A DNA stretch of 64,000 nucleotides from a virus. Where the stretch lies: positions 21,775-85,774 of the IMG/VR virus record IMGVR_UViG_3300005466_000026. One strand, 5' to 3'. Position numbers and translations under genes: made by a program. Shown piece by piece: positions 13,954-28,528 of this stretch. Below the pieces are notes generated by a model. The model had not been told where the DNA came from. It ran no database searches and saw only the letters and a program-made list of their open reading frames with translations. Each line of letters starts with the position of its first letter. Position 1 is the first letter of the stretch.

Positions 13954-13955
13954 GG

Positions 13956-16149: not shown

Positions 16150-16206
16150 GGTGGTTCTCCGTTTGCTTGTGCATGTATAATGTGTGATAGCCTGAAAATT
16201 GACTAA

Positions 16207-16241
16207 CGCAGAAGGCGGAGGCTCTCGCCTCCGCCCGCTGC
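16207..16241 (-). terminator. strong hairpin (terminator or attenuator candidate)
   Basis: Minus strand GGCGGAGGC-GAGA-GCCTCCGCC with extendable GCAG/CTGC; followed by T-richer sequence. Confidence 0.55.
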
Positions 16242-16749
16242 AATCTCTTTGTCGTTGCTCTCCTCGCCTTCCTCCGCTCGTGCCGCCACTCATCTCGCTA
16301 CTGCGGATGCGGTGGTCATCTGGTGTGAGATGCGGATTTCGGTTCCTTCGTGAGCGCCTCGTCTGGATCCTGCCAGGGATCCTCTGCGCTTCTAATGTTC
16401 TTGGCTCGTGGGCTGGATACTTCCGCCCTGCGACGACGACCCTCGGTCTGCGTTCTGGTGTTCGTCTACGAGTTTCCTGCCGGTTCAAAATTCTGCCAAA
16501 AAATTTTGCTGGCCAGCAGCAGCAACGGGTCCGCCCCGTTGTATTCGCGGTGTCCTAAACCACGGTAGCTTTTTTCGGCCGCTGAAGGGCGCTCGCTACC
16601 GTAAGGAGTCTTCCCTGTTTTTGCCCTTTTCGCCCCGGGACCGAAGCCGCTGTGGGGGAGGGGAATTGGCGGGACTTGACTCTTTTCGCCGGTGCCAGTT
16701 AGGGGATGGGGTTGGAGGCCACCGCTTGCTAACCAGCACCCTCATAATA

Positions 16750-16769
16750 GCCTACCCCTAGGGGTAGGC
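16750..16769. repeat. perfect 20-bp palindrome
   Basis: GCCTACCCCTAGGGGTAGGC is its own reverse complement. Confidence 0.9.
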
Positions 16770-16819
16770 CAAGCGATATTCTTAGGCTTTTATACCTATT
16801 CATAGATTGGTTCCTAGGG

Positions 16820-16835
16820 GTTAATGAGACGTTAA
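16820..16835 (-). promoter_or_regulatory. CtrA-binding box
   Basis: Minus strand TTAA-CGTCTCA-TTAAC equals the full TTAA-N7-TTAAC consensus, in the only long non-coding region. Confidence 0.75.
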
Positions 16836-16845: not shown

Positions 16846-18849
16846 CTATTTTGGAAGGTCAGCCCACGTGCCGGTCGCGGTTCCCCACGTCCGGCCGTAC
16901 TCGGCGTCCACCATCATGGGAACCTCGAGAGAAACTATCTCGCGCATGATCTGCGTTATCTCGTTCCCTGTCTTCTCACTGGCCTGACTGAAGCCGAGCT
17001 CGTCGTGCATCTGGATGAGCGGTACGTGGCCAGCATCGTAGCACGCTCGCATGGCCATCTTGGTCTGCCGCGCCGCGCTGCCCTGAATGAGACCATTCAT
17101 GGCCTTTCGACACTCGGCCCGCCGCAGTCTCTTGCCGTACCACGGATGGTCCTTGTCCCTCACCCGCTCGCGAGCCTCCTCGATCCGGCAGTAGCCCATC
17201 TTGATCTGGCCGCCGCTGCCCCATCCTCTGCGCCGCTCGTCCTCTGAGAGCCAAGTCGGCTCCCACATGTCGAAGTGAATTCGGGCTCCGTCTATCAGCC
17301 GTATGAACCCGGTGCGACTGGCCTTCTCCTGACACAGAGTGTTCAGCTGCTTGACGAACGGCATCTGCTCGTCGTACTGCGTCATTATCTTCTCGGCCTC
17401 CTCCATGCTCTTGTTGATCATGGAGGCGAACTTCTTCACGCCAGCGCCGTACGACTTCGCGAAATTCGTGTCCTTCGCTGGCTTGCGCGGCAGACCAGTC
17501 ATGTCGGCGACCATGCTGTGAAAGTCGGTGCGCGGATCTGTTCTGTAGCGAGTCGCGGCCTCCAGCGCCTTCTTCAGCTTGTTGCGAACCGCGAAGTGCA
17601 CTATCAGCCGGTACTCCTGCTGAGAGTAGTCCGCCGACATCCACGCCTCGCCCTCCTCGGGCAGGAACAGCCCCCGGATGAGCGTCGCCAGCTCCTCGTT
17701 CCGATGCGGCATCTGCTGCAGCGGGGGGTCGGAGTAGCTGAAGCGATAAGTGCGAGTGCCGCCCTCCTCGGACTTGAACTGATTGATGGAGGCGTGAAGC
17801 CTGCCGAGATGGGCGTAGTCTATGATGTACGACTGAACGAACTTGTGCGCGGCCTCGTGATACTCCTTCGCCTTGACCAGCATGGGAGGGAGCCAGTGCG
17901 GCGAGTCCTTCATCCACTTCTTCTCGAAGCTGCCGCGTCCAGTACCGTCGCGCGGGAACTTGATCTTCAGCTTGGTGAATACGTCCGTCATCCAGCCGTT
18001 GGATCGCAGGTCGTCGATGTCGACGCCGTGTCCCAGCTTGGAGCTGATGTCGCGGAAGGTCTCCCTAGACGTCTCGATGCAGTGTGCCTTCACCTGCTCG
18101 GCGGCCTCTAGATCTACGCGAATGCCGCGCCTGCGCATGGCGTGGACCACCGGCAGGAGATCCATCTCGAGCTGGTACGCGTCTACTGTCTTCTCCTTCT
18201 CCATCAGCGGTCGCAGCTTGTGCGCCAGCTGGAGCGTGCGAACCGCGTCGGTCTCCGCGTACTCTCCCACGAACTTGGCCGGGAGCCGCCACATGTCCGT
18301 CTTCGGATCGATGCCGTAGGACGCCGCTGCGTCTCTGAGAACTCGCTCCTCCTTGCCCGGTAGTCCTTGCCACTCGCAGAGCGCGTCGAGATTGAACTCG
18401 AAGCGGTTCTCGTCTATCATGTTGGCCATGCACGTCGTGTCGTCCACCTGGGATGGACACCCGACGCCGAGATCTACGTCGCCCCATCCCACGTCGAACG
18501 GCGCGTTCTGCATCACGAAGCGGACGCCAGCCCTCTGATGGTCCTTCTCCCATCTGGCGATCTGGTCGGGCTGGAAGCACTCGGTGTCCGGATGCCTGAT
18601 CGGCGCGTAGAAGGACTCGAAGACCTCACCCTTCTTCCACGCTGCGCTGACGCCTATCACGTAGCCAGCCTTCATCGCCCATCCTGGACCGCGCTCGGCC
18701 GCGAGGCCGTCGTCCTTGCACTCGCGGTCGAAGCCTATCTCCTTGCACCTGCGGAGATCAGGCAGCTCAGTCGGCGGCTCCCAGTCGCTGGTCGGCGTGA
18801 ACAGCGGGTCCTGAAAGCCGCCGACGTGATAGTTCTTGCGCTTCTTCAA
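16846..18849 (-). CDS. polA: DNA polymerase, family A (3'-5' exonuclease plus polymerase)
   Basis: ExoI-like FDRECK; motif A SADYSQQEYRL, motif B RKPAKDTNFAKSYG, NGLIQGSAA, motif C IQMHDEL; likely TTG start overlapping the upstream stop. Confidence 0.95.
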   Translation of the reverse strand: MKKRKNYHVGGFQDPLFTPTSDWEPPTELPDLRRCKEIGFDRECKDDGLAAERGPGWAMKAGYVIGVSAAWKKGEVFESFYAPIRHPDTECFQPDQIARWEKDHQRAGVRFVMQNAPFDVGWGDVDLGVGCPSQVDDTTCMANMIDENRFEFNLDALCEWQGLPGKEERVLRDAAASYGIDPKTDMWRLPAKFVGEYAETDAVRTLQLAHKLRPLMEKEKTVDAYQLEMDLLPVVHAMRRRGIRVDLEAAEQVKAHCIETSRETFRDISSKLGHGVDIDDLRSNGWMTDVFTKLKIKFPRDGTGRGSFEKKWMKDSPHWLPPMLVKAKEYHEAAHKFVQSYIIDYAHLGRLHASINQFKSEEGGTRTYRFSYSDPPLQQMPHRNEELATLIRGLFLPEEGEAWMSADYSQQEYRLIVHFAVRNKLKKALEAATRYRTDPRTDFHSMVADMTGLPRKPAKDTNFAKSYGAGVKKFASMINKSMEEAEKIMTQYDEQMPFVKQLNTLCQEKASRTGFIRLIDGARIHFDMWEPTWLSEDERRRGWGSGGQIKMGYCRIEEARERVRDKDHPWYGKRLRRAECRKAMNGLIQGSAARQTKMAMRACYDAGHVPLIQMHDELGFSQASEKTGNEITQIMREIVSLEVPMMVDAEYGRTWGTATGTWADLPK

Positions 18850-19808
18850 GTCTCCGCCTCCCACGCGCGGTCTATCAGGTGATGCTTCTCGTCGCTCGGG
18901 TTCCACTCGTAGAGTGTAGCGACCCACTCCTGCATCTTCTCCCACTCGTGACGATTGGCTTCTTCCTGAAACTTCGGGAAGTACTCTCTGGCGCCGAGAG
19001 GACACAGAGCGATCTTGACGACGTACAAGTTACCCTGCGTCGGCTTGAAGTCGTACAGACTGCGGATGAGCGCGGGCGGCTCTCCGAACTTCGGATCGCA
19101 CACGCTGGCCTCTAGAACCCACAGAGGACCGACTCTTCTGAACCACGTCTCGATGTGCATCTGCGTGAATACGTTGTTGATCACGTCGTCGGTCATCACC
19201 CACGGAGCCAGCGACTCGTGCTGCCCGCCGTCCTCAGGAGTACCGATGACTCTCTTGTCGTCGAACGGTGGTTTAGAGTACGCGTCCACCGACTCTACGC
19301 TGGTGTCGCTGTTCCAGACCTCGCTCATCCTGCGAGCCTCCTCCGCAGTCAGCCGAGGCGCGACGATGATCTTCTTCTCTCGCTCCGGCAGCACCGCGCC
19401 GCGCGAGATCATCTCGGCCTCGATCAGCGTGGCGTAGCGCCGCAGGTCCCGGAGGCAGGCTAGAACGCTGCCGTCCTTGCCGCTCGGGTCGTCGTGTATC
19501 TTCTCGAAGACGTCCTCCTCGCTCAGCTTCTGCACCATCCACTCGGCCAGCTCGTGAGACAGCGTGTACTCCTTGTCCGGGTCCGTAGCTACGTCCTGAA
19601 GGTCCTCTCGGCTGAAGCTCTCCGGCCACGGCACGGAGGCCATCATGTTCAGCAGTCGGTCCATGTTCCTGCGAAACATGAACCACGCGCTTCGTCCACC
19701 GGCCATCTTCCAGCTTCCCTGATAGGTGGCCTCCTTCTCCCTGAGCAGCATGACGTCGCTGTCGGCGACGCGCTGCAGATGCTCCAGATGCTTCATGTCG
19801 TGGCTCAT
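18846..19808 (-). CDS. nucleotide-modification-associated domain 1 (Nmad1/DUF1599-like) protein
   Basis: LREKEATYQGSWK..GG...RRNMDRL...LRDLRRYATLIE pattern; context next to PolA and TS. Confidence 0.65.
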   Translation of the reverse strand: MSHDMKHLEHLQRVADSDVMLLREKEATYQGSWKMAGGRSAWFMFRRNMDRLLNMMASVPWPESFSREDLQDVATDPDKEYTLSHELAEWMVQKLSEEDVFEKIHDDPSGKDGSVLACLRDLRRYATLIEAEMISRGAVLPEREKKIIVAPRLTAEEARRMSEVWNSDTSVESVDAYSKPPFDDKRVIGTPEDGGQHESLAPWVMTDDVINNVFTQMHIETWFRRVGPLWVLEASVCDPKFGEPPALIRSLYDFKPTQGNLYVVKIALCPLGAREYFPKFQEEANRHEWEKMQEWVATLYEWNPSDEKHHLIDRAWEAET

Positions 19809-20311
19809 GATATCTTCACTCCCTTCATCCACTCGTCGACCTTGACGTACTGATACAGCTCGTCCGCCATCTTGAGTGCGATCTCTCTGGTGTCGCGCAT
19901 GGGTATTGCGGCGTACTGATTACCCATCATGAACTCGTGAAAGCAGAACTCGTACATCTCCAGCAGGTCGCAGATCTTGAACCGCTTCCACTCGTCCTCT
20001 CGCATCTGCGGCAGCTCGATCTGCTGATGACCCAGACCCAGTCTCTCGGCCTCGTTGACAGCCGCGCCGTAGCCCTCGACTCGGTGCTTGCCGCCGAACG
20101 GAACGTCGCCGGCGAACTGCTCTCCCATGTCGTGATGCAGGCAGTAGTAGAGAACCTCCGCGCGAGGAATACCGAACACCTCGCAGTAGATCTGCGCGAC
20201 GCGACCCTGATGCTCGATCACGTTCGGCTTTCGCAGAGTCGGCCAAGTGTGCCATCGCGCCACCTGACCGGCTAGATGCCTTGATCTGTAGACTTGATCT
20301 CTAGTAACCAT
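19805..20311 (-). CDS. HD-domain nucleotidase (YfbR-like)
   Basis: VARWH...NVIEH...LHHDMGEQFAGDVP...KICDLLE. Confidence 0.85.
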   Translation of the reverse strand: MVTRDQVYRSRHLAGQVARWHTWPTLRKPNVIEHQGRVAQIYCEVFGIPRAEVLYYCLHHDMGEQFAGDVPFGGKHRVEGYGAAVNEAERLGLGHQQIELPQMREDEWKRFKICDLLEMYEFCFHEFMMGNQYAAIPMRDTREIALKMADELYQYVKVDEWMKGVKIS

Positions 20312-21463
20312 TCACATCCTCCTCGTCATCCACTCGGTGCACGCCACGCGCCAGTCCTCTGACTGGATCTCGTTGGCTGCAGCCACCGCTCTTATCTTCT
20401 GGCCGTCTCTCCACAGACGGTGCGACCGAACAACCGGCTGAGCAACCTCGCAGAACCAGTCGTTCTCGCAATGTCTCAGAGGTACGTCGCTCTCTGTTCG
20501 GTAGCACTCGTCGTGCCACGACATGAACTCGATGACGTCCTCGTCGGCCTTCTCTCCGACCGTGAATACCGGGCGCGTCTTCAGCCGAAGAGAGAAGTAC
20601 CTGTCGTCGTGCAGGGCGCCGACTATGCTGCTCTCCTCCTTGGCCATTCGCTTGGTCATAACGCCGAGCATCGTCTCGTACATGTGAAAGTTGTTCGAGA
20701 GAACGTACAGATCACCCATCGCCACGCCGACGCGAGCAGCCAGATACTCCTGCAGAAAGCTGAAGTGCACCGAGTTCGCGCCGTAGAGTCCCCAGACGAT
20801 GTCGTTACTGCGGCAGCACACCGTCATGTCCAGAACTCTGTTCCCCTTAGATATGACCACGCCGTCCGGCCAGTGATCTGGACCGTCTCCGCGCACTCTG
20901 AGATAGATGTGCGTGTTGCACGGTCTGTCCTTCCACTCGCCGGTGAGGTCCAGAGCGCCGACCTCCTGCTCGCCGACGTTGCCGTTACCCAGACTAACGG
21001 GCAGCGTGACGCTGGAGCAGTCCCACATCTGGATGACGCACTGACGCGTCCCCGGGTCCTTGATCAGCCGATCCACGACCGCTCCCAGCTGATCAAGTCC
21101 GAAGCGGAAGCGCCATCGGTGTCCGTACGCTCCGTGGATCTGACCCCCGGCCTCCCAGTTCGCGCTCCCGCTGGCGCTCTCGGCGAACCGCTGGCCGAAG
21201 TCCGTCACGTAGTGGTTCAGCGTCTCGGCGTCGTCCCTGCCAGCCAGCATCCAGATGGCCTCCACGACGTGAAAGAATGGATTGGCATCTCTCACCTTGC
21301 TGAAGACCACGCGCTCCCACGGTCTCTTGAGGCGCGTGACGACGGGACCGGGGGCGACTAGGCAGGGACCCGCCCGAGTCTTCTCGAGCAGGCCGGAGTT
21401 GATTAGCAGGTGCACTCCCTTCGGGAGTGCCGCCGCTGAGTTCGTGGTGTCGATGACGTGCAT
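20312..21463 (-). CDS. thymidylate synthase homolog, probable dUMP hydroxymethylase
   Basis: RDANPFFH..EAIWMLAG, GAYGHRWR, DPGTRQCV, catalytic PCN, RSNDIVWGLYGAN (Asn at the dUMP/dCMP specificity position), NNFHMY. Confidence 0.9.
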   Translation of the reverse strand: MHVIDTTNSAAALPKGVHLLINSGLLEKTRAGPCLVAPGPVVTRLKRPWERVVFSKVRDANPFFHVVEAIWMLAGRDDAETLNHYVTDFGQRFAESASGSANWEAGGQIHGAYGHRWRFRFGLDQLGAVVDRLIKDPGTRQCVIQMWDCSSVTLPVSLGNGNVGEQEVGALDLTGEWKDRPCNTHIYLRVRGDGPDHWPDGVVISKGNRVLDMTVCCRSNDIVWGLYGANSVHFSFLQEYLAARVGVAMGDLYVLSNNFHMYETMLGVMTKRMAKEESSIVGALHDDRYFSLRLKTRPVFTVGEKADEDVIEFMSWHDECYRTESDVPLRHCENDWFCEVAQPVVRSHRLWRDGQKIRAVAAANEIQSEDWRVACTEWMTRRM

Positions 21464-21479
21464 CTGTGGCTCCTGTCGG

Positions 21480-21758
21480 TCAGAACGGTATCTCGTCGTC
21501 GTCCACCTCGGTGCGGCGTTTGCCGCCTCCGAAGGACGGCTTGTCGTCGCCGCTGCCGCTGCGCTCTGCGCGCTCCTTCGGCTCGAACAGCATGATAACT
21601 ATCTTGTTCTCCTTCTTGGGGTCCGGGACGGGGACGCTGTCCAGGTAGATAGTGATCTGTCCCTTGTCGTTCTGGTGAGCCTGTCCTACTCGGTGCCACC
21701 AGACACCGTCCTCGTTGTACTTAGGTCTCGGAGTCATCGCGTCGTATCTCTTCGGCAT
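21480..21758 (-). CDS. small protein with SSB-like acidic tail
   Basis: W.RVG.A...G.ITIYLDSVP beta-rich core; ends in DDDEIPF. Confidence 0.65.
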   Translation of the reverse strand: MPKRYDAMTPRPKYNEDGVWWHRVGQAHQNDKGQITIYLDSVPVPDPKKENKIVIMLFEPKERAERSGSGDDKPSFGGGKRRTEVDDDEIPF

Positions 21759-22200
21759 GTGGCTGTCCCTTGAGATAGAGTTCTTCCAGCAGTATCGCCG
21801 CCAGACCCGCGCACTCTGGATCGTTGTACCAGCGGCACAATCCAGAGGGATGAGGTAGCTGCCGCCATGTGCATCCGTTCATCTGAACAGGGTGAATAAG
21901 TATCTTGGGGAGCTCCAGTGCACTGCGCACCTGCTCCCCGAACACGACAATGGTACGTCCGGCGTAGAGCGAAGGAAAACGCTCCGCCGCTGCCTTGGCC
22001 ACCGGCCTGCTCCACGTTCTGGAGTTGATCAGGTTGAGCCGCTCGAAGCCGTCCATGTATCCCTTTCGCGTGACCTGCGGCTGGCGCGTCTGCAGAAGCC
22101 TCCAGAGACGGTAGCCGCTGCTCCCGGACGGGAACGGAGCGAGCGCGTACCTGGGATCCGCCGACAGCGGATTGTTCATTCCCAGCAGTACGGCCCTCAC
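21721..22200 (-). CDS. uracil-DNA glycosylase superfamily protein
   Basis: VLLGMN, SGYRLW, LNL, VVFGEQV and LPHPSGLCRWYN; GTGA-coupled start. Confidence 0.7.
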   Translation of the reverse strand: MRAVLLGMNNPLSADPRYALAPFPSGSSGYRLWRLLQTRQPQVTRKGYMDGFERLNLINSRTWSRPVAKAAAERFPSLYAGRTIVVFGEQVRSALELPKILIHPVQMNGCTWRQLPHPSGLCRWYNDPECAGLAAILLEELYLKGQPHAEEIRRDDSET

Positions 22201-22745
22201 ACCAGATTGAGCCACCGAAACACCTTCGCGAACACCTGCTCGCGGGATCCTAAAAAGCATTCCACCTTCTCCTCTTGAAAGTCGTAGTAGTGTCTGCGAC
22301 TCTTTCTGTGCAGCGCCTCGATAGTCTTCTCCTGGATCTTGTGACCGCGCTCACGAACGGCCTTGACGCAGTCCTCCAGAGGCTCGTCTATCAGGGCGAC
22401 CGCTATCGGTAGTCCGGCGTCCCGAAGATCGAGCAGGTTCTGTGGCTTGTCGGTGAAGTTCTTTCCCTCGTAGAGCACGTTGCATCCGAGCTCCAGAGCG
22501 TGGATCCTCATCAGTTCGTACGCCAGCGGTAGACTAGGCAGCGTGTCCAGTCCGCCGTTCGCTATCTCGTAGTGTCCGGGAACGTACAGATGCTTCTCGT
22601 TGATGTTGTTGTGAGTCAGGATGTATCCGGCAGGCTTCTGTCTGCCGGGATACTCCAGCTTGCGGCTCACCGGATAGAAGGACATGATCCTGCGGACCAG
22701 ATGCGACTTGCCCGCGCCGTTCGTTCCCAGGAGACTGATTATCAT
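22197..22745 (-). CDS. P-loop kinase, 5-hmdU DNA kinase / nucleotide kinase-like
   Basis: Walker A GTNGAGKS; GHYE..NGGLDTL and VLYEG motifs typical of modification-associated P-loop kinases. Confidence 0.75.
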   Translation of the reverse strand: MIISLLGTNGAGKSHLVRRIMSFYPVSRKLEYPGRQKPAGYILTHNNINEKHLYVPGHYEIANGGLDTLPSLPLAYELMRIHALELGCNVLYEGKNFTDKPQNLLDLRDAGLPIAVALIDEPLEDCVKAVRERGHKIQEKTIEALHRKSRRHYYDFQEEKVECFLGSREQVFAKVFRWLNLV

Positions 22746-23119
22746 GAGTGCTGATCCAGCTGACTGATCTCGTGCATGTTCGCCAGCGCGAACTCTCGAC
22801 GGTCCTTCTTGTCCATGTCGTAGCACATCAGCAGCCACTGAGGAGTCTCGTACCACTCGCTGGTTCCCCACCGCACGCTGATGGGATTAACTGTTCGCCA
22901 GCTGAACGAGCCGCGATAGTTGACGTAGCTGAAGCGAAGAGTCTGCGTCGGCCGAGCCTCGTCCTGATGCATCTCCAGTATGCGAGCCAGCGCGGACAGA
23001 TGATTGGTCGCCGAGGTGATCACCTCTCGAGCTCCCGTGTAGGACCATGCCGGATGCTCGCGACATAGCCTCTCGATGCTGGCGGCTAGATCTCTCAGGC
23101 TATGCTTCTGCGCTGGCAT
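22742..23119 (-). CDS. WYL-domain protein
   Basis: LRFSYVNYRG....RTVNP......G......QWLL.CYD.DK.DRREF. Confidence 0.75.
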   Translation of the reverse strand: MPAQKHSLRDLAASIERLCREHPAWSYTGAREVITSATNHLSALARILEMHQDEARPTQTLRFSYVNYRGSFSWRTVNPISVRWGTSEWYETPQWLLMCYDMDKKDRREFALANMHEISQLDQHS

Positions 23120-24179
23120 CGTCGCCTCCTCTGGGTCCCTGATAGGCTGGCACCGGCTCGCGATCCTTCCACGGCAGACGCACCACCTTGTCGCGCTGAC
23201 CATGCGAGAGAGCCTCCTGGATGTCTGCCGCCGTCTGCGCGTCGGGCTTGTGCAGCTTGCCCTGACCCATCAGGTCCGGAAGCAGGCCGACGCGATAGCT
23301 GCGATGATTGCACCCTCGGCACGGCGTGAAGTCGCGCTCGCCGCGTATCAGCTTCTCCCTGGCGGCTCCCATCGCGTCGCCCTGCCACAGCTCACCGATG
23401 TTGGTCTCGTTCGTGTTGCCCACGAAGTACGGACTGTCCCACGTGTTGCAGCACAGAGGAACGTTGCCGTCCCAGTGAATGGCGATCTGCCTGAACGGAT
23501 GATGACACCGCTTGCCTGCCATACTGTCGTCGGGCGCGAAGGCGAGGCCAGCGTAGTTGAACACCTTGCCGTGATTGCCAATCTTCTTGTCGGCCGCCTG
23601 CGACGCGAGATCCCGTATCTTCACCAGCGTCCTCGTGCCCGGTCTTCGGCGCTTGTGCGGGTTCCCGCGAATGTCCCGCGGATAGTCGTAGTAGGTGAAG
23701 CCAAGAGGATGCTTGACGCCCGATCGCAGCTTGCCCTTCTCCTCGATGGCCGCGATGACCTTCTCCACGAACTTCACGTTCTCGTAGTCGTCCAGCCCGA
23801 GGACGCTGACGCCAGCGTCGAACAGCGCTGTCACGTTCACCACCGGACCCGGCTTCCTGAGTAGTCCCCCGGCGTTGGTCAGCATCGTGATGTGCGCCTT
23901 CGGCAGACACTCGCGAGTGGCCGCCATCATCCCCACGTAGTCCGGATGCATGGTGGGCTCACCGCGCATGGCGAAGCCGACGCGACAGTTCCAGCCGAGA
24001 GCTCTCACGTCCGTGAGCGCCTTGACCAGCGTCTCCTTCTTCATGAACTCGTATCCCTTGCCCTGCTTCTCCTGTATCGCGGAGACCGCGCAGAAAGGAC
24101 AGTTTAGATTACAGCCGCGCGTCAGCTCCAGCGTGACGTTGAACGGGGGTTCCTGAGTACGGTATCTTCGGCGCGTCAT
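23100..24179 (-). CDS. radical SAM enzyme with SPASM/Twitch domain
   Basis: CNLNCPFC (CxxxCxxC), GEPTMHP, LTNAG; C-terminal CHHPF..IAIHWDGNVPLCC..VGN...PCRGC. Confidence 0.9.
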   Translation of the reverse strand: MTRRRYRTQEPPFNVTLELTRGCNLNCPFCAVSAIQEKQGKGYEFMKKETLVKALTDVRALGWNCRVGFAMRGEPTMHPDYVGMMAATRECLPKAHITMLTNAGGLLRKPGPVVNVTALFDAGVSVLGLDDYENVKFVEKVIAAIEEKGKLRSGVKHPLGFTYYDYPRDIRGNPHKRRRPGTRTLVKIRDLASQAADKKIGNHGKVFNYAGLAFAPDDSMAGKRCHHPFRQIAIHWDGNVPLCCNTWDSPYFVGNTNETNIGELWQGDAMGAAREKLIRGERDFTPCRGCNHRSYRVGLLPDLMGQGKLHKPDAQTAADIQEALSHGQRDKVVRLPWKDREPVPAYQGPRGGDDASAEA

Positions 24180-25126
24180 AGGTTCTTCTCCAGTCTGTTG
24201 TAGGCCTCTAGGACCTTGTCCTTCAGATCTCGCTTCTCGCGAGCAGCCTTCAGCCACCATCGGTCCTGCTGCTCCTTCAGTATCTCTGCCCGTCTGGACA
24301 TCCTGCGCTGAACGGAGGCCGCGTTGCTGACCAGGAAGTCTCCTGGGTCATAGCCTGCCTTGCGCAGCGTGTAGCCCGCCTCCTCCTGGAACACCATAGG
24401 AAGTCCGCCGCTGAGCATCTCGTAGAAGCGGTTGGGAGGCGAGTGGAAGTTGCTGTGCGACTTGGCGTCCTCGAGATAGAGGCCGAGGCCGTGCCGTCCC
24501 AGCTCGGAGTGCAGATCCTCTATCTTCTTGACGTGTCGCACGTTGGGTCCGTTGTACTTCTGCTCGAACCGACTTGTCGGCGAGGAGATGGTTATGGGCA
24601 GCGACGGACTGTTGAAGAACTTGTCGAACGCCTTGGTTCGGCCGGCTCGGAAGCTTCCGTAGTAGAAGAGGTCTCCGGCGTCCTTCTTATTCAGAGGCGG
24701 CTTCTCCTCCTCGAACCCCAGAGCGTTCCAGTTTATCAGCGAGCTGAGAGTCGTGAGCTTGCTCTCCCTCTCGCAGGTCGTCCAGAACTCCAGGTGCGAC
24801 TTACCCGCCTTGCGTCGGTCGACGAACGCCTTGCGGAACGGCGACGTAGCGTCGCCGTCGTTGATGGGCGGAACTATGGTGTAGTCCTGCTGTATCCAGA
24901 CGATGCGCCTGACGCCGCGTATGGCGTGCGACAGCGGCTCTAGATGCTTGCAGAAGGCGTATGCCCCGTTCACTATGAAGAGGACGTCCGCCGTCTTGTA
25001 GAGCTCAATGGTCTCGTCGTCCACCAGCGGCAGGTCCAGCGTCTTGCTGAGAAAGAACGCCGCCTTGACCGACGCGACCATCGACTTCTCGCTGCACGCT
25101 ATGAAGCTGAATATGGCTGCCTTCAC
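24176..25126 (-). CDS. DNA beta-glucosyltransferase-like (T4 BGT/GT63-like) glycosyltransferase
   Basis: Colinear matches to T4 BGT as recalled: MKAAI/MKIAI, DVLFIVN/DRLIVVN, IVWIQQD/IYYLFTD, DLFYYGSFRAGR/DVIYGGSFRSGQR, NRFYE/LRVWE, FLVSN/FYVNN. Confidence 0.75.
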   Translation of the reverse strand: MKAAIFSFIACSEKSMVASVKAAFFLSKTLDLPLVDDETIELYKTADVLFIVNGAYAFCKHLEPLSHAIRGVRRIVWIQQDYTIVPPINDGDATSPFRKAFVDRRKAGKSHLEFWTTCERESKLTTLSSLINWNALGFEEEKPPLNKKDAGDLFYYGSFRAGRTKAFDKFFNSPSLPITISSPTSRFEQKYNGPNVRHVKKIEDLHSELGRHGLGLYLEDAKSHSNFHSPPNRFYEMLSGGLPMVFQEEAGYTLRKAGYDPGDFLVSNAASVQRRMSRRAEILKEQQDRWWLKAAREKRDLKDKVLEAYNRLEKNL

Positions 25127-25332
25127 GTCTCACCTCTCTGCTTCTGGAAGTCCCTGACTTGGTTAATTATCCTCTGCTTCGCGCCCGAAGCCAAGTTCTG
25201 AATGGCTCTCTGCTGCCAGCACGTGGGATCTCGCGGCGGCAGATGCGAGACGTAGTCTGCGTAGCTGAGAACGTCTCCGTAGTCGGAGTCCGTGTCCCGA
25301 GCGATCTTGAGAAGCGGATAGCTGGTGCTCAT
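25123..25332 (-). CDS. hypothetical protein
   Basis: 69 aa, coupled at both ends. Confidence 0.55.
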   Translation of the reverse strand: MSTSYPLLKIARDTDSDYGDVLSYADYVSHLPPRDPTCWQQRAIQNLASGAKQRIINQVRDFQKQRGET

Positions 25333-25943
25333 CTTCGGTCCATTCTCAGGACGTGCCAGCCTGCCTCGAAGATCGGCACGTCACCCGTGATCTTGAAGCC
25401 GCCGCGACTGATCATGGCCAGGAACTTCTTCCTGTCGTGCTCTGCCGTGTTGCTCTTCAGCACGTACTTGTCGCCGAAGCGTATCGTGCAGATGATGGAC
25501 CTCTTCGCGAGCTTCATGAAGCCCCTCATGGCCGCCTGCATGGAGGGCTCGTCGATGAGGTCCAGGAACCGCACCGCCACGATCACGTCGGAGGGTGGCA
25601 AGCCCTCCAGCTTTCTGGCGTCGCCGACCTGCAGGACGTAGGACGGCGGCACCTTCTTGTTCTTCAGCTTCCCCTTAGCTATGGCGAGCATCTGCTCCGA
25701 GGAGTCTACGCCCGTAACGGTGGCCACGCTCAGCTGATGATACAGATAGAAGAACCTGCCGGTTCCCACCGGGCAATCGATCACGGTCTGCGGCCTCAGC
25801 TCGGTGAGCATGTCCTCGACCGCCGCGTTCTCCTCGCCCCATCGTATCTGCTTCTTGCGCTTGGCCTCGTAGCCGCTCGCCATCTTACCGCGATACTTTC
25901 TCGCGGTCCTGTCTCCCAGATTGAATGCCGCAGATGGTCTCAT
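25329..25943 (-). CDS. class I SAM-dependent methyltransferase
   Basis: VIDCPVGTGRF, VTGVDSSEQML, VGDA. Confidence 0.85.
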   Translation of the reverse strand: MRPSAAFNLGDRTARKYRGKMASGYEAKRKKQIRWGEENAAVEDMLTELRPQTVIDCPVGTGRFFYLYHQLSVATVTGVDSSEQMLAIAKGKLKNKKVPPSYVLQVGDARKLEGLPPSDVIVAVRFLDLIDEPSMQAAMRGFMKLAKRSIICTIRFGDKYVLKSNTAEHDRKKFLAMISRGGFKITGDVPIFEAGWHVLRMDRR

Positions 25944-26138
25944 CTATCTCCTCCCCTTGCTGTCGAAGACTACTCTTCCGGTTGATCTCTCGAAGCACGT
26001 GACCGCCGCGCTGCTGTTTCTAGCCATCGCGCCCACGAACTCCTTGCAGGCTTCCTTGCTGTCGAACTTGACCTGCTTCGGCTCCTCGCATCCGAGGAAG
26101 CTGCAGAACGTTATGAGTACGAAGAATGGACTTTCCAT
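25944..26138 (-). CDS. small Cys-containing hypothetical protein
   Basis: TAGGAG RBS; hydrophobic N-terminus; FDSKEAC...C. Confidence 0.55.
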   Translation of the reverse strand: MESPFFVLITFCSFLGCEEPKQVKFDSKEACKEFVGAMARNSSAAVTCFERSTGRVVFDSKGRR

Positions 26139-26917
26139 GTCACTTCTCCTAATTGCTGCTTCATCTTCATGCCTTTATTCCACGGTTCTCGTCCTTTCAT
26201 TGCGGCACTCATTTTTGCACGAGACTCAAGAGTGTGCTTCTTACCTTTTCTCTTCGACGGTTTTCCTTTCTGTGCTGCGCTCATCTTAGCTCGAGACTCA
26301 GCTGTATGTTTCCGACCTGCTATCCAGGGAATTTGACCCTTATGAACATCACTCATCTTTTTTCGGTGCTCAGGATTTTCCCACGCCTTCTTGATTAAAT
26401 CTTTCAATATGATTGAGCCTCTCTCACGATAATCAGGATCTTTCCATCTTTCTTTTGACTCTCTTCTCATTTTATTCGCTTGGCGCTCTCGATACTCTGG
26501 ATCTTTCCACTGCTCTTTTAATTGCCTTGTCATAGAAGCACTCCTACGCTCACGAAATTCAGAGGACTCCCATAGCTTCACGACTGCTAGTCTCATTGCT
26601 TCACGTGAAGCTTCTCTGGAGATAGCGTATTGCCAGCTAGAGCATGGTCTGCCTTGAGTCATTCTACTGAGTGCACTCACCATCTGATGATGTGCTCTGC
26701 CATCAAGAATAAATTTAGTCAAGAGCCAGTGTGCCAGAAAATGTTCTCGATAGGTCAGTGAGACCAAGTTCTCTGAGCTGTTATACCAGCTCGGATCTCC
26801 GCCGAAACTTCTAGGGTTTCGGTGATGTCTCTCGTAACGTACTCCTGGTTCGCGCTCGCGGCTCGCGGCGCGATCCATGATCTGCGTGTACCAGAGACGA
26901 TACTTCTCAGTGCTCAC
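26111..26917 (-). mobile_element. HNH homing endonuclease with NUMOD3 repeats
   Basis: YERHH.NPRSFGG....NLVSLTYREHFLAHWLL; repeats RKHTAESRAKMSAA and KKHTLESRAKMSAA; visibly AT-richer than flanks. Confidence 0.85.
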
Positions 26918-27789
26918 GCGAACACTCCTCTTGGTCTGCCCTCGCCGTTCCTGACTCTCTCGTACTTGTCGAACTCGCAGAGCGTGTGCTCGACGTCTCG
27001 CATCTCCCACTTGGGCCACTGCCTCGGCCAGTTGCCCGGACTGCAACTGGCCGCGAGGATCAGCTGCATCTCCTCCAGCATCTTGGGCACCCTGACGCTC
27101 TTATCCTTCTTGTTCCTGCCGTGTATCCGGTTCAGTCCGCGCCTCGCCCCCGGTCCCACGTTGCACCAGCTCATGATGTCGTTCGCGTCGCAGAGAAGGT
27201 TGGTGTGCCGCAGGTCCGTGACTATCTCGTACGAGTGAAATGTGCCGAGCCACGGCTGCATCTTGAACCAGAGCCAAGCCGTCTGCAGAGACATCTTCTC
27301 CTTAATCATCTGCTTGGCAGCGTCCCTCCATCCGCTCTCCTCTCTGAAGTTCTTCAGGATCTCCAGGATCCCGTCCAGCTTGGTGAAGCCGGGGGGAGAG
27401 GTTATGATGTACGCTCCGGTGACGTAGGGGCCGTCACCGCAGATCGCCTTGACGTCCTTCTTCATGCGTCGCAGGTCTCCGGTCTGCAGGAACACCGCGA
27501 AGGCGTTGTTCTTGTCGAAGTCCAGGTGATTGAAGATGGCCTCTCCCGTGCTGATCCTGTTGAACATGCGGAACACGACCGTGGCCAGTAGCACGTCCGG
27601 CGAGTCTCTCATCTCCTCCCTCACGTTGCGTCGGAACCAGTCAGTGGTCTTGTCCAGCTCCCGGAAGACGTTCGTGAACCTGTACTTCTGCAGGATCGGG
27701 TCCCTCGTCAGGGACGACTTCCCCTCCAGACGGTTCAGGTACACCTGATGTCGCTGCCTCGCGTAGTTGAAGAAGGACTGCATCGTCAT
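26914..27789 (-). CDS. aGPT-Pplase1 family protein (5-hmdU DNA kinase helical-domain family)
   Basis: TRDPILQKYRFTNVFRELDKTT, FRMFN, TGAYI, F.SYEIVTDL, GPGARRGL, DVEHTLCEFDKY. Confidence 0.9.
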   Translation of the reverse strand: MTMQSFFNYARQRHQVYLNRLEGKSSLTRDPILQKYRFTNVFRELDKTTDWFRRNVREEMRDSPDVLLATVVFRMFNRISTGEAIFNHLDFDKNNAFAVFLQTGDLRRMKKDVKAICGDGPYVTGAYIITSPPGFTKLDGILEILKNFREESGWRDAAKQMIKEKMSLQTAWLWFKMQPWLGTFHSYEIVTDLRHTNLLCDANDIMSWCNVGPGARRGLNRIHGRNKKDKSVRVPKMLEEMQLILAASCSPGNWPRQWPKWEMRDVEHTLCEFDKYERVRNGEGRPRGVFA

Positions 27790-28528
27790 GGCTCATCTCC
27801 AGTACATCTTTGAGTGGCTTAGAGTTCCAGAACTCGGCTACGTAGCGCTCCTCCTCGCCGAAGTCCTCCTGCCGCAGGATCCAGGACAGGTAGCTCCGGT
27901 CTATCTCCCTGACGTGCCTCCACTCCATGCCCTTGTACTTGCCGAAGCCGATGATCCTCTGCAGATACGGAGTGTTGGTCAGCTGCACCAGCTCGTCCGC
28001 CGTCTTGAGCGTGAGCATTCGCAGGACCAGCGTGGCGGTCGTCAGCGCGTCGGGCATCGCTCGGTGGGGAGGCCTGATGCAGTAGGGCACCGCGAGGTCC
28101 AGCCAGTATCGCAGCACCTGATTGGAGTGCCTCGGCGCGTCCGGCCACAGATGACGCGACGCCCTCCAGGTGCAGATCACCTTGACGCCCGGAGCCTCCT
28201 GCGTCAGCTTGTAGCCCGACTGCTCCAGCATCCGCAGATCGAAGTCCGCGTAGTGCATCGCCACGTACTGCGATGTCTTGATCTCCGTGAGGATGGACTT
28301 GTTGCGAGCCATCAGCTTGGCCATCGTGGGCGCGTGCTTCAGCTGATCGTCCGTGATGTGATGCACGGCTCTAGCTATCACGTTCATCGAACAGGTCGGC
28401 TTCACCAGCTGATCCCTTCCGAGTATCATCTGCTGAGTCTCTGCGTCGACGGTCGCCACGGCCAGCTCGCACACCTGATCCTGCTCGCTGTCTCCCGTGG
28501 TCTCCGTGTCGACTACCGCTATCCGCAT
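27641..28528 (-). CDS. DEDDh 3'-5' exonuclease (ExoX-like)
   Basis: VDTETTG, HYADFD, PHRAMPDA; C-terminal FGKYKG...YLSW. Confidence 0.9.
   Translation of the reverse strand: MRIAVVDTETTGDSEQDQVCELAVATVDAETQQMILGRDQLVKPTCSMNVIARAVHHITDDQLKHAPTMAKLMARNKSILTEIKTSQYVAMHYADFDLRMLEQSGYKLTQEAPGVKVICTWRASRHLWPDAPRHSNQVLRYWLDLAVPYCIRPPHRAMPDALTTATLVLRMLTLKTADELVQLTNTPYLQRIIGFGKYKGMEWRHVREIDRSYLSWILRQEDFGEEERYVAEFWNSKPLKDVLEMSHDDAVLLQLREAATSGVPEPSGGEVVPDEGPDPAEVQVHERLPGAGQDH

What the first reader, a model, noticed from the sequence alone, without database searches (positions are those of the whole stretch)
18846..27789. Thymidine hypermodification cluster with an unusual enzyme set
Seen, co-transcribed next to PolA: aGPT-Pplase1, SAM methyltransferase, BGT-like glycosyltransferase, radical SAM/SPASM, WYL, P-loop kinase, UDG-like, dUMP hydroxymethylase-type TS, HD hydrolase and Nmad1. 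Known: M6, ViI and PaMx11-type phages replace T with 5-hmdU, phosphorylate it on DNA, then use an amino acid:DNA transferase (aGPT-Pplase2) and PLP/FAD enzymes. I recognise neither aGPT-Pplase2 nor a PLP decarboxylase here. Inference: a different pathway giving a glycosylated and possibly further tailored 5-hmdU, i.e. a candidate new DNA base.
Basis: partly seen in the sequence, partly recalled or inferred. Interest (0 to 1): 0.92.

Follow-up and report, generated by a model that had tools for sequence, protein, structure and literature searches.

The report
Phage thymine sugar-modification gene cluster
A phage from plant-root soil carries a tightly packed gene set that most likely replaces thymine with hydroxymethyluracil and then attaches and reworks a sugar on it, a DNA chemistry that has been predicted but never measured.

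Summary
The cluster is real. On the minus strand of 18846-27789, just upstream of PolA, lie these genes:
- a PF18723 (aGPT-Pplase1/HMUDK_hel) protein
- a class I SAM methyltransferase
- a GT-B glycosyltransferase whose best structural match is T4 beta-glucosyltransferase
- a BtrN-like twitch radical SAM enzyme
- a WYL protein
- a homologue of the PaMx11 5-hmdU DNA kinase
- a thymidylate-synthase homologue with the dUMP-hydroxymethylase signature
- an HD nucleotidase

Two labels did not hold up. 'UDG-like' is only a lead, and 'Nmad1' was not confirmed.

The 99%-complete genome has no amino-acid:DNA transferase (PF18724), and a positive control for that search worked.

My best reading (0.55) is that 5-hmdU DNA is glycosylated and the sugar is then oxidised and/or methylated. 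The kinase and Pplase1, which keeps the transferase's Cys/Glu motif, would handle 5-hmdU by a second route. The role of the kinase remains unexplained.

The GT + Pplase1 + synthase core recurs in 38 of 45 related viral contigs and in the cultured phage IME392. This scan has flagged similar clusters in at least 31 other genomes. Published surveys already list GT-B enzymes beside phage thymidylate synthases. I class it as a new variant of a known kind, with untested chemistry.

The parts
26914..27789 (-). aGPT-Pplase clade 1 / HMUDK_hel protein (291 aa). It is an HhH-type paralogue of the amino-acid:DNA transferases and keeps a Cys (C271) with Glu at -4 and +1.
   Evidence: PF18723 E 3.2e-46. 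It is the only copy in the genome. It is 43-47% identical to PaMx11 gp50 and PhiJL001 gp19.
26111..27046 (-). NUMOD3 homing-endonuclease-like gene (311 aa) lying between Pplase1 and the methyltransferase. It is probably a mobile insert and not part of the pathway.
   Evidence: NUMOD3 E 1.9e-18, 3 stretches. GC drops to 0.54 in 26001-28000. It is found in only 3 of 45 related loci.
25944..26138 (-). 64-aa ORF. Coding status is uncertain.
   Evidence: ORF list. No family hit. It is found only in the two near-identical contigs L004 and L005.
25329..25943 (-). Class I SAM-dependent methyltransferase (204 aa) of small-molecule type. Predicted to tailor the sugar.
   Evidence: Methyltransf_25 E 1.7e-10 and weak UbiE-type hits. 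Homologues are in 10 of 45 GT loci.
25123..25332 (-). 69-aa ORF joined to the methyltransferase and the GT by 4-nt overlaps.
   Evidence: No family hit.
24176..25126 (-). GT-B DNA glycosyltransferase of the T4 beta-glucosyltransferase type (316 aa, GTG start).
   Evidence: AF2 pLDDT 93.9. Foldseek ranks 1-6 are T4 BGT, E 2.6e-10. T4 D100/S189/R191/R195/R269/E272 align with D81/S158/R160/R163/R233/E236. The family has 285 metagenome proteins at E <= 0.001.
23100..24179 (-). BtrN-like twitch-domain radical SAM enzyme (359 aa from the ATG that overlaps the GT stop).
   Evidence: Radical_SAM and SPASM. The family profile hits BtrN at E 1.5e-21. The core and twitch domains and the four auxiliary-cluster Cys positions align. 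CX3CX2C is present.
22742..23203 (-). WYL-domain protein, a likely ligand-sensing regulator. The start is more probably at 23119.
   Evidence: WYL E 6.5e-5. phrog_3715 E 9.1e-20. GGAGG lies upstream of the inner ATG.
22197..22745 (-). P-loop kinase homologous to the PaMx11 5-hmdU DNA kinase (182 aa from the inner ATG).
   Evidence: 38% identity, E 2e-25 to PaMx11 gp49. gp49 = YP_009196302, listed as 5-hmdU DNA kinase in PMC8989533 Table 1. tblastn hits 21 phage records.
21721..22200 (-). UDG-superfamily-like protein (159 aa from GTG). This is a lead only.
   Evidence: phrog_12275 E 1.2e-23. Homologue in phiM9 annotated 'putative uracil DNA glycosylase'. Atlas scores 0.95-0.97. No Pfam or PDB sequence hit.
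21480..21758 (-). 92-aa ORF of unknown function.
   Evidence: Found in 3 of 45 loci. No family hit.
20312..21463 (-). Thymidylate-synthase homologue with the dUMP hydroxymethylase signature (383 aa).
   Evidence: Pfam E 2.8e-15 and phrog_5131 E 1.1e-81. It is 36-37% identical over its full length to PaMx11 gp51 and PhiJL001 gp24. It has the catalytic Cys, Asp at the L143 position, Asp at D169 and Asn at N177. The criteria come from PMC13326640.
19805..20311 (-). HD-domain 5'-deoxynucleotidase-like protein (168 aa). Probably removes dTMP or dUMP-type nucleotides from the pool.
   Evidence: YfbR-like E 2.9e-6. phrog_6047 E 2.6e-23. It sits at the same position as PaMx11 gp52 and PhiJL001 gp25.
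18846..19808 (-). Two-domain protein (320 aa). The N-terminal half is an all-alpha domain with weak MazG/RS21-C6-like fold matches. The C-terminal half is an alpha/beta domain with no match.
   Evidence: AF2 pLDDT 85.2. Foldseek found nothing at E <= 0.001. VIA Z 6.5-7.7 to NTP pyrophosphohydrolases. 123 homologues, none with a Pfam domain. It occupies the slot of the DUF3310 proteins PaMx11 gp53 and PhiJL001 gp26.
16846..18864 (-). Family A DNA polymerase immediately downstream. The start is approximate.
   Evidence: ORF and translation. Same position as PolA in PaMx11 and PhiJL001. A terminator-like site follows at 16525-16506.

Best explanation
This is a thymidine hypermodification operon of the sugar type.

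Step 1 (inferred from sequence signatures): the thymidylate-synthase homologue makes 5-hydroxymethyl-dUMP. The HD nucleotidase, and perhaps the MazG-like protein, deplete thymidine nucleotides. PolA then builds 5-hmdU into phage DNA.

Step 2 (inferred from fold and conserved residues): the BGT-like GT-B enzyme flips out 5-hmdU in DNA and transfers a sugar to its hydroxyl from a host NDP-sugar, probably a UDP-hexose. This gives a base-J-like nucleotide.

Step 3 (inferred from homology to BtrN and from gene coupling): the twitch radical SAM enzyme oxidises a secondary hydroxyl of that sugar, or of its NDP-sugar donor, to a ketone. The SAM methyltransferase methylates the sugar.

Step 4 (the least certain): the 5-hmdU DNA kinase phosphorylates 5-hmdU that was not glycosylated. 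Pplase1 keeps the Cys/Glu motif of the amino-acid:DNA transferases, and it converts 5-PmdU to another product, possibly thymine.

The WYL protein probably regulates the operon. The product should shield the DNA from host nucleases.
For: Synthase. The catalytic Cys is invariant. Asp sits three residues before it, at the E. coli L143 position, which is acidic in hydroxymethylases. Asp is kept at D169, so this is not a 5-hydroxy-dCMP synthase. Asn is at N177, which selects dUMP over dCMP. Sources are, with the criteria read in sections 24 and 28 of PMC13326640. The protein is 36% identical to PaMx11 gp51.

Glycosyltransferase. The model has pLDDT 93.9. Foldseek ranks 1-6 are T4 BGT, and the alpha-glucosyltransferase of T4 is also listed. 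T4 D100 is named the catalytic residue in a legend of the Pyle et al. preprint and in the title of PDB 1nzd. T4 D100, S189, R191, R195, R269 and E272 fall on columns that are conserved in 37, 36, 37, 37, 37 and 37 of 37 family members.

Context of the GT. Among 45 viral loci that hold a GT homologue, tblastn at 1e-5 finds the synthase in 38, Pplase1 in 38, HD in 23, the kinase in 20, the radical SAM enzyme in 18 and the methyltransferase in 10. Gene order is usually GT-rSAM-kinase-synthase or GT-Pplase1-synthase-HD.

Radical SAM enzyme. BtrN is the best solved relative: E 1.5e-21 with the family profile and E 7.5e-10 with the single sequence, with both domains and the auxiliary-cluster cysteines aligned. 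Its ATG overlaps the GT stop codon.

Kinase. It is homologous to PaMx11 gp49.

No alternative route. PF18724 is absent, with a working positive control. There is no TET/JBP, no TAGT, and neither PF00155 nor PF00266.

Pplase1 motif. The window reads DVEHTLCEFDKY, against QEVETILCKWKSH in the AADT PaMx11 gp46. PMC8989533 reports that the Cys and a neighbouring Glu are essential in AADTs.
Against: No chemistry of any kind is available.

Similarity of the GT to BGT is structural only. hhalign gives probability 1.8% (E 0.028), and the family profile finds no PDB chain better than E 0.4. The acceptor base and the sugar cannot be read from sequence.

The functions of T4 S189, R191, R195, R269 and E272 are recalled from memory, not taken from a call.

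The kinase has no demonstrated role in a glycosylation route. Many related loci have the GT and Pplase1 but no kinase (25 of 45 by tblastn; some of those contigs are cut short). Step 4 is therefore a guess, and Pplase1 cannot depend on 5-PmdU everywhere.

No NDP-sugar synthesis gene lies in the operon.

The radical SAM enzyme also gives a weak pVip hit (E 1.1e-4).

No dCMP deaminase was found.

The 45 loci are related phages, and two of them (L004, L005) are near-identical to the window, so the co-occurrence counts are not independent events.
Confidence: 0.55

Rival explanations
1. Kinase-first, phosphate-linked sugar. The kinase makes 5-PmdU, and the sugar is joined through that phosphate or after its displacement. 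This would give a phosphoglycosyl-type thymine modification like the phosphorylated, glycosylated side chains of SP-15 and Carin-5.
For: A 5-hmdU DNA kinase homologue sits directly after GT-rSAM in the window and in L006-L016. The kinase and the radical SAM enzyme occur together in 13 of the 25 loci that have either. Carin-5 thymidine carries a linker that is phosphorylated and then glycosylated (passages of PMC12686479).
Against: GT-B enzymes of the BGT type use a hydroxyl acceptor, and the BGT catalytic Asp is conserved. 25 of 45 GT loci lack a detectable kinase. No linker-building genes are seen.
Confidence: 0.12
2. Pplase1 is the real transferase. Acting as a divergent AADT, it uses 5-PmdU to attach an amine or other nucleophile. 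The GT, radical SAM enzyme and methyltransferase then either decorate that adduct or serve a parallel branch.
For: Pplase1 keeps the Cys and the -4 Glu of the AADT motif. PF18724 gives a sub-threshold hit (E 7.8e-4) on the Pplase1 of PhiJL001, which shows the two families are related. The kinase is present.
Against: In M6 lysate reconstitution, gp55 (the fifth protein besides AADT, PLP enzyme, rSAM and kinase; that it is the Pplase1 comes from an earlier scan note, not checked) was dispensable for the glycinyl adduct (passage of PMC8989533). Pplase1 co-occurs with AADT in the known phages, so it is not simply redundant with it. The -4 position is Gln in 13 of the 23 aligned Pplase1 proteins.
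Confidence: 0.12
3. The GT, radical SAM enzyme and methyltransferase do not act on DNA. They would make or modify a small molecule, a nucleotide analogue (viperin-like) or a protein or cell-surface glycan. The DNA would carry only 5-hmdU or T.
For: There is a weak pVip hit on the radical SAM core. The phage has a second glycosyltransferase/methyltransferase cassette at 51818-57397. Pyle et al. note pVip-annotated genes near phage GTs (passage).
Against: The best structural matches of the GT are the two DNA glucosyltransferases of T4. The genes are embedded by overlaps in the DNA-metabolism operon. The GT travels with the synthase and Pplase1 in 38 of 45 loci. BtrN matches far better than pVip.
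Confidence: 0.08
4. The synthase is an ordinary thymidylate synthase or a cytosine-directed enzyme, so the acceptor is not 5-hmdU.
For: Only signature residues were tested, not activity. The closest solved sequences are CMP hydroxymethylase MilA and T4 TS.
Against: Asn at the N177 position, Asp at D169 and Asp at the L143 position together fit only the dUMP hydroxymethylase class by the criteria of PMC13326640. The synteny matches that of PaMx11, where the pathway starts from 5-hmdU.
Confidence: 0.05

Closest known systems
Thymidine hypermodification clusters of Pseudomonas phages PaMx11 and M6 (Lee et al. 2018, 2021; PMC5889632, PMC8989533)
   Same: The backbone and its order next to PolA are the same: 5-hmdU DNA kinase, Pplase1, TS homologue, HD protein, then a small all-alpha protein. 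Identities are 38% for the kinase, 43% for Pplase1 and 36% for the TS.
   Different: There is no AADT/aGPT-Pplase2, and neither PF00155 nor PF00266 was found. No FAD or acetyltransferase family was searched in the genome. The slot between Pplase1 and the kinase holds a methyltransferase, a BGT-like GT and a BtrN-like radical SAM enzyme. That radical SAM enzyme has no tblastn match in any of 50,697 phage records, so it is unrelated at that level to the SPL-like isomerase M6 gp53.
T4 gp42 dCMP hydroxymethylase with beta-glucosyltransferase (GT63)
   Same: The logic is the same: a pre-replicative TS homologue makes a hydroxymethyl pyrimidine, and a GT-B enzyme glycosylates it on DNA. The GT shares the fold and the aligned catalytic Asp and UDP-contact residues.
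   Different: The synthase carries Asn rather than Asp at the base-specificity position, so the base is uracil and not cytosine. Sequence similarity to BGT is below significance. The extra kinase, Pplase1, radical SAM and methyltransferase genes have no T4 counterpart.
Base J of kinetoplastids (JBP1/2 and JGT)
   Same: The predicted core product is a glycosylated 5-hydroxymethyluracil in DNA.
   Different: The 5-hmU would arise before replication from a TS homologue, not from thymine oxidation; no TET/JBP domain is present. The GT is a GT-B of the BGT type. According to the Pyle et al. preprint, JGT resembles the phage GT-A enzymes. I made no direct comparison with JGT.
Cassettes of cultured phages Escherichia phage vB_EcoM_IME392 (MH719082) and alphaproteobacterial phage PhiJL001 (AY576273)
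   Same: IME392 has a homologue of this GT (26% identity, 98% coverage), followed by PF18723 (E 3.2e-35), a P-loop protein, a TS and an HD protein. PhiJL001 has Pplase1, a GT, a TS, an HD protein, DUF3310 and PolA, and no AADT above the cut-off.
   Different: Neither has the radical SAM enzyme or the methyltransferase. The PhiJL001 GT belongs to the TAGT family (E 2.7e-53), and PhiJL001 carries Nmad5 instead of a kinase. The IME392 P-loop protein (AAA_28) is not detectably related to this kinase, and IME392 adds a PIG-L deacetylase. In 8 papers that mention IME392, I found no report of its DNA chemistry.
BtrN, 2-deoxy-scyllo-inosamine dehydrogenase of butirosin biosynthesis (PDB 4m7s/4m7t)
   Same: It has the radical SAM core with CX3CX2C and a twitch domain whose four cluster cysteines align.
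   Different: The phage enzyme is about 90 residues longer, with a conserved basic insert. Its substrate would be a DNA-linked or NDP-linked sugar. BtrN's function is recalled from memory, apart from its name in the PDB table.
Glycan-bearing thymine replacements of SP-15, YerA41 and Carin-5
   Same: These are phage DNAs in which thymidine carries sugars. Glycosyltransferase genes lie near PolA (passages of PMC12686479).
   Different: Those bases have a (di)hydroxypentyl linker plus phosphate. Their gene blocks hold nucleotidyltransferase, deacetylase and KDO-type transferases. The words 'kinase', 'Pplase' and 'radical SAM' do not occur in that paper.

Membership tests
M6/PaMx11/ViI-type thymidine hypermodification pathway | dUMP hydroxymethylase that supplies 5-hmdU | tested here: met
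   Catalytic Cys, acidic residue at the L143 position, Asp at D169 and Asn at N177. Criteria from PMC13326640. 36% identity to PaMx11 gp51. Activity was not assayed.
M6/PaMx11/ViI-type thymidine hypermodification pathway | 5-hmdU DNA kinase (P-loop) | tested here: met
   38% identity, E 2e-25 to PaMx11 gp49, which PMC8989533 Table 1 lists as a 5-hmdU DNA kinase. The Walker A segment aligns.
M6/PaMx11/ViI-type thymidine hypermodification pathway | Amino-acid:DNA transferase (aGPT-Pplase2, PF18724) | tested here: not met
   No match at E <= 10 in the whole 99%-complete genome. The same search finds PaMx11 gp46 at E 3.3e-29.
M6/PaMx11/ViI-type thymidine hypermodification pathway | Amino-acid tailoring enzymes (PLP decarboxylase, SPL-like rSAM isomerase, flavin lyase, acetyltransferase) | tested here: not met
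   PF00155 and PF00266 are absent; other PLP folds were not searched. The radical SAM enzyme is BtrN-like and matches no phage record by tblastn. No FAD or acetyltransferase hit among the 10 cluster proteins scanned.
T4 BGT-type DNA beta-glucosyltransferase | GT-B fold closest to BGT | tested here: met
   Foldseek ranks 1-6 are T4 BGT, E 2.6e-10 to 1.1e-8, TMq 0.61-0.68. Model pLDDT 93.9.
T4 BGT-type DNA beta-glucosyltransferase | Catalytic Asp100 and UDP-contact residues | tested here: met
   In a MAFFT alignment they fall on window D81, S158, R160, R163, R233 and E236, conserved in 36-37 of 37 members. The roles of the other residues are recalled from memory.
T4 BGT-type DNA beta-glucosyltransferase | Significant sequence similarity to the family | tested here: not met
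   hhalign probability 1.8%, E 0.028. No Pfam, NCBIfam or PHROG hit. The profile against PDB gives nothing better than E 0.4.
T4 BGT-type DNA beta-glucosyltransferase | Acts on a hydroxymethyl pyrimidine in duplex DNA with UDP-glucose | not testable with these tools
   This needs an enzyme assay.
BtrN-like twitch radical SAM dehydrogenases | CX3CX2C cluster plus a twitch domain with four auxiliary-cluster cysteines | tested here: met
   The family profile hits BtrN at E 1.5e-21. NCBIfam twitch-domain model E 2e-11, below its cut-off.
BtrN-like twitch radical SAM dehydrogenases | Oxidises a secondary alcohol of a sugar or cyclitol | not testable with these tools
   Inferred only from homology and from coupling to the GT.
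aGPT-Pplase clade 1 (PF18723, HMUDK_hel) | Full-length match to the family model | tested here: met
   E 3.2e-46 over profile positions 4-277 of 281, and E 9.5e-48 in the six-frame search.
Base J pathway | Thymine hydroxylase of the TET/JBP family | tested here: not met
   PF12851 gives no match at E <= 1 in the genome.
   No Pfam family at E <= 10. PF07659 has no match (the accession is recalled). There are weak leads only: Atlas score 0.78 and a 33% match over 133 aa to a Pam3 gene annotated 'nucleotide modification'. The fold search points weakly to MazG-like pyrophosphohydrolases, Z 6.5-7.7.
   No Pfam or PDB sequence hit. Atlas 0.95-0.97, where 23 of 30 hits are in a set in which 12% of members carry PF03167. 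GMNNP- and HPSG-like motifs are seen in the translation. No structure was predicted.

The most novel reading that the evidence does not exclude
The operon makes a DNA base that has not been described: 5-hydroxymethyluracil bearing a hexose that is oxidised to a keto-sugar by a radical SAM enzyme working on DNA-linked sugar, and then methylated. That would be the first radical SAM sugar tailoring on DNA. In parallel, the 5-hmdU DNA kinase and Pplase1 would form the long-sought route that turns the remaining 5-hmdU back into thymine. That would give Pplase1, present in all thymidine-hypermodifying phages, its first function.
Probability: 0.25. Interest if true: 0.85.

Novelty: new variant of a known kind. 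Interest (0 to 1): 0.6.

Why it matters
Phage DNA hypermodifications defeat restriction and CRISPR defences, and they have supplied tools such as T4 BGT for mapping 5-hmC.

All thymidine hypermodification pathways worked out so far pass through 5-PmdU and an amino-acid or polyamine:DNA transferase (PMC8989533, PMC13458397). This operon keeps the kinase but swaps the transferase for a BGT-type glycosyltransferase and a BtrN-type radical SAM enzyme.

If the prediction holds, it would add:
- a sugar branch to thymidine hypermodification
- a 5-hmU-specific DNA glycosyltransferase family with hundreds of members
- a radical enzyme that reworks a glycan on DNA

It also offers a way to find out what Pplase1 does. 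Cultured relatives (IME392, PhiJL001) make the core directly testable.

Tried and rejected
Sequence-only identification of the GT failed. Pfam, PHROGs and NCBIfam gave nothing. The profile against PDB gave nothing better than E 0.4. hhalign to T4 BGT gave probability 1.8%. Only the structure search settled it.

For the 328-aa protein:
- A profile comparison between its subfamily and the DUF3310-type subfamily gave probability 0.3% and aligned only the C-terminal domain.
- 7 of 16 proteins grouped with it by BLAST linkage carry DUF3310, but the window protein does not.
- BLASTP to PaMx11 gp53 was not significant.
- Foldseek gave nothing at E <= 0.001.
- The VIA Z values of 6.5-7.7 are below the level that the tool calls reliable for helical bundles.
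- Its C-terminal domain (about residues 200-320) was barely tested.

hhalign of the Pplase1 profile against PaMx11 gp46 was uninformative (probability 0.9%). The motif comparison is by eye.

The 230-aa family f10, which sits upstream of the GT in kinase-less loci, has no Walker A motif and no Pfam hit, so it is not a hidden kinase.

PF18725 was a wrongly recalled accession; it is a HEPN family. That search says nothing.

The DNA search of the phage collection found only a 73-bp match.

Sequencing runs: no RNA holder was listed. I did not lay reads.

Promoter-like and terminator-like sites were at chance level.

Papers: PMC3763556 (Iyer et al. 2013) and PMC1065128 (Lohr et al. 2005) are not held, so what they say on Nmad1, Pplase1 contexts or PhiJL001 DNA is not checked. 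Figure 2 and the supplements of PMC8989533, and Figs S9-S10 of the Pyle et al. preprint, may already show contigs of this type.

In print: searches found no paper that joins a dUMP hydroxymethylase, a BGT-like GT and a radical SAM enzyme, or that reports glycosyl-5-hmdU made by such a cluster. The main text of PMC8989533 has 0 occurrences of 'glycosyltransferase'. The Pyle et al. preprint has 0 occurrences of 'radical' and 0 of 'kinase'.

Full report
WHAT IS THERE.

The window is bases 21775-85774 of an 85,774-bp IMG/VR virus record, rated 99% complete by CheckV. G+C is about 60%. The part outside the window holds the portal, capsid-protease, terminase and a NusG-like gene.

From about 34500 down to 8000, genes run on the minus strand. 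The stretch 18846-27789 holds, in order of transcription:
- Pplase1 (26914-27789)
- a NUMOD3 homing-endonuclease gene (26111-27046)
- a 64-aa ORF
- a SAM methyltransferase (25329-25943)
- a 69-aa ORF
- a 316-aa protein (24176-25126)
- a radical SAM enzyme (23100-24179)
- a WYL protein
- a P-loop protein (22197-22745)
- a 159-aa protein
- a 92-aa ORF
- a thymidylate-synthase homologue (20312-21463)
- an HD protein (19805-20311)
- a 320-aa protein (18846-19808)
- PolA

Upstream lie a DEDD exonuclease, a UvrD-type helicase, an AEP primase, a Pam3 gp34-like protein and a SNF2 helicase. The cluster therefore sits inside the replication module.

With starts chosen from homologue alignments, six gene junctions are 4-nt start/stop overlaps. 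Terminator-like sites are not enriched.

THE INDIVIDUAL GENES.

Pfam confirms PF18723 (E 3.2e-46), the methyltransferase, Radical_SAM with SPASM, WYL, Thymidylat_synt and a YfbR-like HD domain.

P-loop protein. It has no curated family hit, and PHROGs gives only the misleading 'terminase small subunit' family. It is 38% identical (E 2e-25) to PaMx11 gp49. That protein, YP_009196302, is listed as a 5-hmdU DNA kinase in Table 1 of Lee et al. 2021 (I read passages and section 21 of that paper).

316-aa protein. It matched nothing by sequence. It has 285 metagenomic relatives at E <= 0.001, and none of the 120 listed carries a Pfam domain. An AlphaFold model built from 37 of them has pLDDT 93.9. 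Its six best PDB matches are all T4 beta-glucosyltransferase (E 2.6e-10, TM 0.68), followed by other GT-B enzymes and T4 alpha-glucosyltransferase. I added the T4 BGT sequence, taken from the T4 record, to the family alignment. T4 D100, S189, R191, R195, R269 and E272 fall on D81, S158, R160, R163, R233 and E236, which are conserved in 36 or 37 of 37 members. hhalign pairs the same two motifs, though at an insignificant score. D100 is named the catalytic residue in a legend of the Pyle et al. preprint. The UDP-binding role of the other residues is my recollection.

Radical SAM enzyme. Its closest solved relative is BtrN, at E 1.5e-21 with a 9-member profile and E 7.5e-10 alone. The core domain, the twitch domain and the four auxiliary-cluster cysteines all align. 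It has no tblastn match in 50,697 phage records. It is therefore not the SPL-like isomerase of M6. A PADLOC pVip hit is weak (E 1.1e-4) and covers only the core.

Synthase. Sections 24 and 28 of Lee et al. 2026 (PMC13326640) give diagnostic positions in E. coli ThyA numbering:
- N177: Asn selects dUMP, Asp selects dCMP.
- L143: acidic in hydroxymethylases.
- D169: Asn in 5-hydroxy-dCMP synthases.

I aligned the window's protein with E. coli ThyA, T4 gp42, PaMx11 gp51, PhiJL001 gp24 and six cluster-linked homologues. It has the catalytic Cys, Asp three residues before it, Asp at D169 and Asn at N177. The HMMER alignment to MilA places that Asn opposite MilA's Asp. All ten phage homologues except T4 gp42 share the Asn column. 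This is the dUMP hydroxymethylase signature.

The two weakest labels. The 159-aa protein is UDG-like only by Atlas features and by a homologue's annotation. The 320-aa protein is not demonstrably Nmad1. Its model has an N-terminal helical domain with weak MazG/RS21-C6-type matches (Z 6.5-7.7; 7 of the top 12 rows are NTP pyrophosphohydrolases) and an unmatched C-terminal domain. It occupies the slot of the DUF3310 proteins of PaMx11 and PhiJL001.

WHAT IS MISSING.

PF18724 (AADT) has no match at E <= 10 in the genome. The same search finds PaMx11 gp46 at E 3.3e-29. Also absent are PF00155, PF00266, TET/JBP, TAGT and dCMP deaminase. Not every PLP fold was searched.

COMPARISON WITH RELATIVES.

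PaMx11 has AADT-FAD-AT-kinase-Pplase1-TS-HD-gp53-gp54-PolA. The window has the same backbone, but a methyltransferase, the GT and the radical SAM enzyme lie between Pplase1 and the kinase.

I fetched 45 viral loci that carry a GT homologue. By tblastn at 1e-5 the counts are: TS 38, Pplase1 38, HD 23, kinase 20, radical SAM 18, the 328-aa protein 11, UDG-like 11, methyltransferase 10. Many contigs are cut short, so absences are partly artefacts. L004 and L005 are near-identical to the window.

Six loci (L006, L007, L008, L013, L016, L021) show GT, radical SAM, kinase, Pplase1 and TS together. The kinase and the radical SAM enzyme co-occur in 13 loci, the kinase alone in 7, the radical SAM enzyme alone in 5, and neither in 20. 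A frequent minimal cassette is GT-Pplase1-TS-HD-small protein without a kinase. Some loci add TAGT or PfkB sugar-kinase genes.

Two cultured phages carry versions of the core. IME392 has PIG-L, this GT family, PF18723, an AAA_28 P-loop protein, TS and HD. PhiJL001 has PF18723, TAGT, Nmad5, TS, HD and DUF3310.

Runs that hold the stretch are all labelled rhizosphere metagenome: 23 rows in 22 coded studies from 2017-2018, of which 8 may be the source sample and all may belong to one campaign.

MECHANISM.

Shown by computation:
- the identities above
- the gene coupling
- the absence of an AADT

Inferred:
- 5-hm-dUMP synthesis and incorporation
- glycosylation of 5-hmdU on DNA from a host NDP-sugar
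- BtrN-type oxidation of a sugar hydroxyl, on DNA or on the donor
- methylation of the sugar

The kinase is the open point, because no known consumer of 5-PmdU is present. Pplase1 may be that consumer. Its motif DVEHTLCEFDKY lines up with QEVETILCKWKSH of the AADT PaMx11 gp46, and Lee et al. 2021 report that the Cys and a nearby Glu are essential in AADTs. All 23 aligned Pplase1 proteins keep the Cys and the following Glu. The -4 residue is Glu in 8, Gln in 13 and other in 2.

Known hypermodifying phages end with thymine at unmodified sites and no 5-hmdU. I therefore suggest, as a guess, that kinase plus Pplase1 remove leftover 5-hmdU. Kinase-less loci argue that Pplase1 has at least one other mode of action.

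NOVELTY.

The kind of system, a pre-replicative hydroxymethyl pyrimidine followed by a post-replicative group transfer encoded next to the polymerase, is well known.

Published surveys already note three relevant points:
- GT-B DNA glycosyltransferases are often found beside phage ThyS genes, in about 28% of GT-B pathways. The authors frame these as cytosine sugar pathways and mention pVip-annotated neighbours.
- Many phage dioxygenase-GT pathways probably act on 5-hmU.
- Thymidine hypermodification genes combine in many ways.

In seven literature searches I did not find this particular set, any glycosyl-5-hmdU product from it, or a BtrN-like enzyme linked to DNA. Supplements and two older papers were out of reach.

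This scan has noted look-alike clusters before: 35 notes in at least 31 genomes, several followed up with the same reading. Most of those were described as kinase-less. The present one keeps the kinase.

I therefore class it as a new variant of a known kind, of moderate to good interest, with a clear experimental path through IME392 and PhiJL001.

Noticed in passing
window 26111-27046 (minus strand): A NUMOD3-repeat homing-endonuclease-like gene sits between Pplase1 and the methyltransferase in a local G+C dip (0.54). It is found in only 3 of 45 related loci and looks like a mobile insert inside the operon.
   Followed up: partly
window 27641-27789: The exonuclease ORF (27641-28528) overlaps the Pplase1 ORF by 149 nt. 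Its last 62 residues give a 42% tblastn match to the PhiJL001 gp18/gp19 junction. This could be alternative-frame similarity over a conserved gene start, or a real overlapping tail. It is unresolved.
   Followed up: no
window 51818-57397 (minus strand): A second sugar cassette lies inside the virion module. It has GT9-like, FkbM, CmcI/rhamnosyl-O-methyltransferase-like and Methyltransf_12 genes plus unassigned ORFs. It might glycosylate virion proteins or extend a DNA glycan.
   Followed up: partly
L055 (Escherichia phage IME392) 6301-12616: This cultured E. coli phage has PIG-L deacetylase, an unknown gene, a BGT-like GT of this family, PF18723, an AAA_28 P-loop protein, TS and HD in a row. 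The Carin-5 paper lists it among phages with a YerA41-like polymerase. I found no report of its DNA chemistry.
   Followed up: partly
L001 (PhiJL001) 11992-16834: The order is gp19 PF18723-type, gp22 TAGT (E 2.7e-53), gp23 Nmad5, gp24 TS, gp25 HD, gp26 DUF3310, then PolA. No AADT is above the cut-off; the only PF18724 hit is sub-threshold and lies on gp19 itself.
   Followed up: partly
L041, L043, L045 (PfkB) and L028, L048 (TAGT): Some GT-family loci add a PfkB carbohydrate kinase or a second glycosyltransferase of the TAGT family near the GT-Pplase1-TS core. This hints at varied sugar chemistry across the family.
   Followed up: no
window 31335-32933 and 33071-34523: There is an AEP primase with a TOTE-type AEP domain and PriCT-1, then a Pam3 gp34-like protein and a weak Mu Gam/Sipho_Gp157-like protein.
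   Followed up: no
window 23100-25943, public runs: All 23 runs that hold this stretch are labelled rhizosphere metagenome, 2017-2018. The UDG-like protein's phage relatives are mostly from Rhizobium, Sinorhizobium and Agrobacterium phages, which hints at an alphaproteobacterial host.
   Followed up: no
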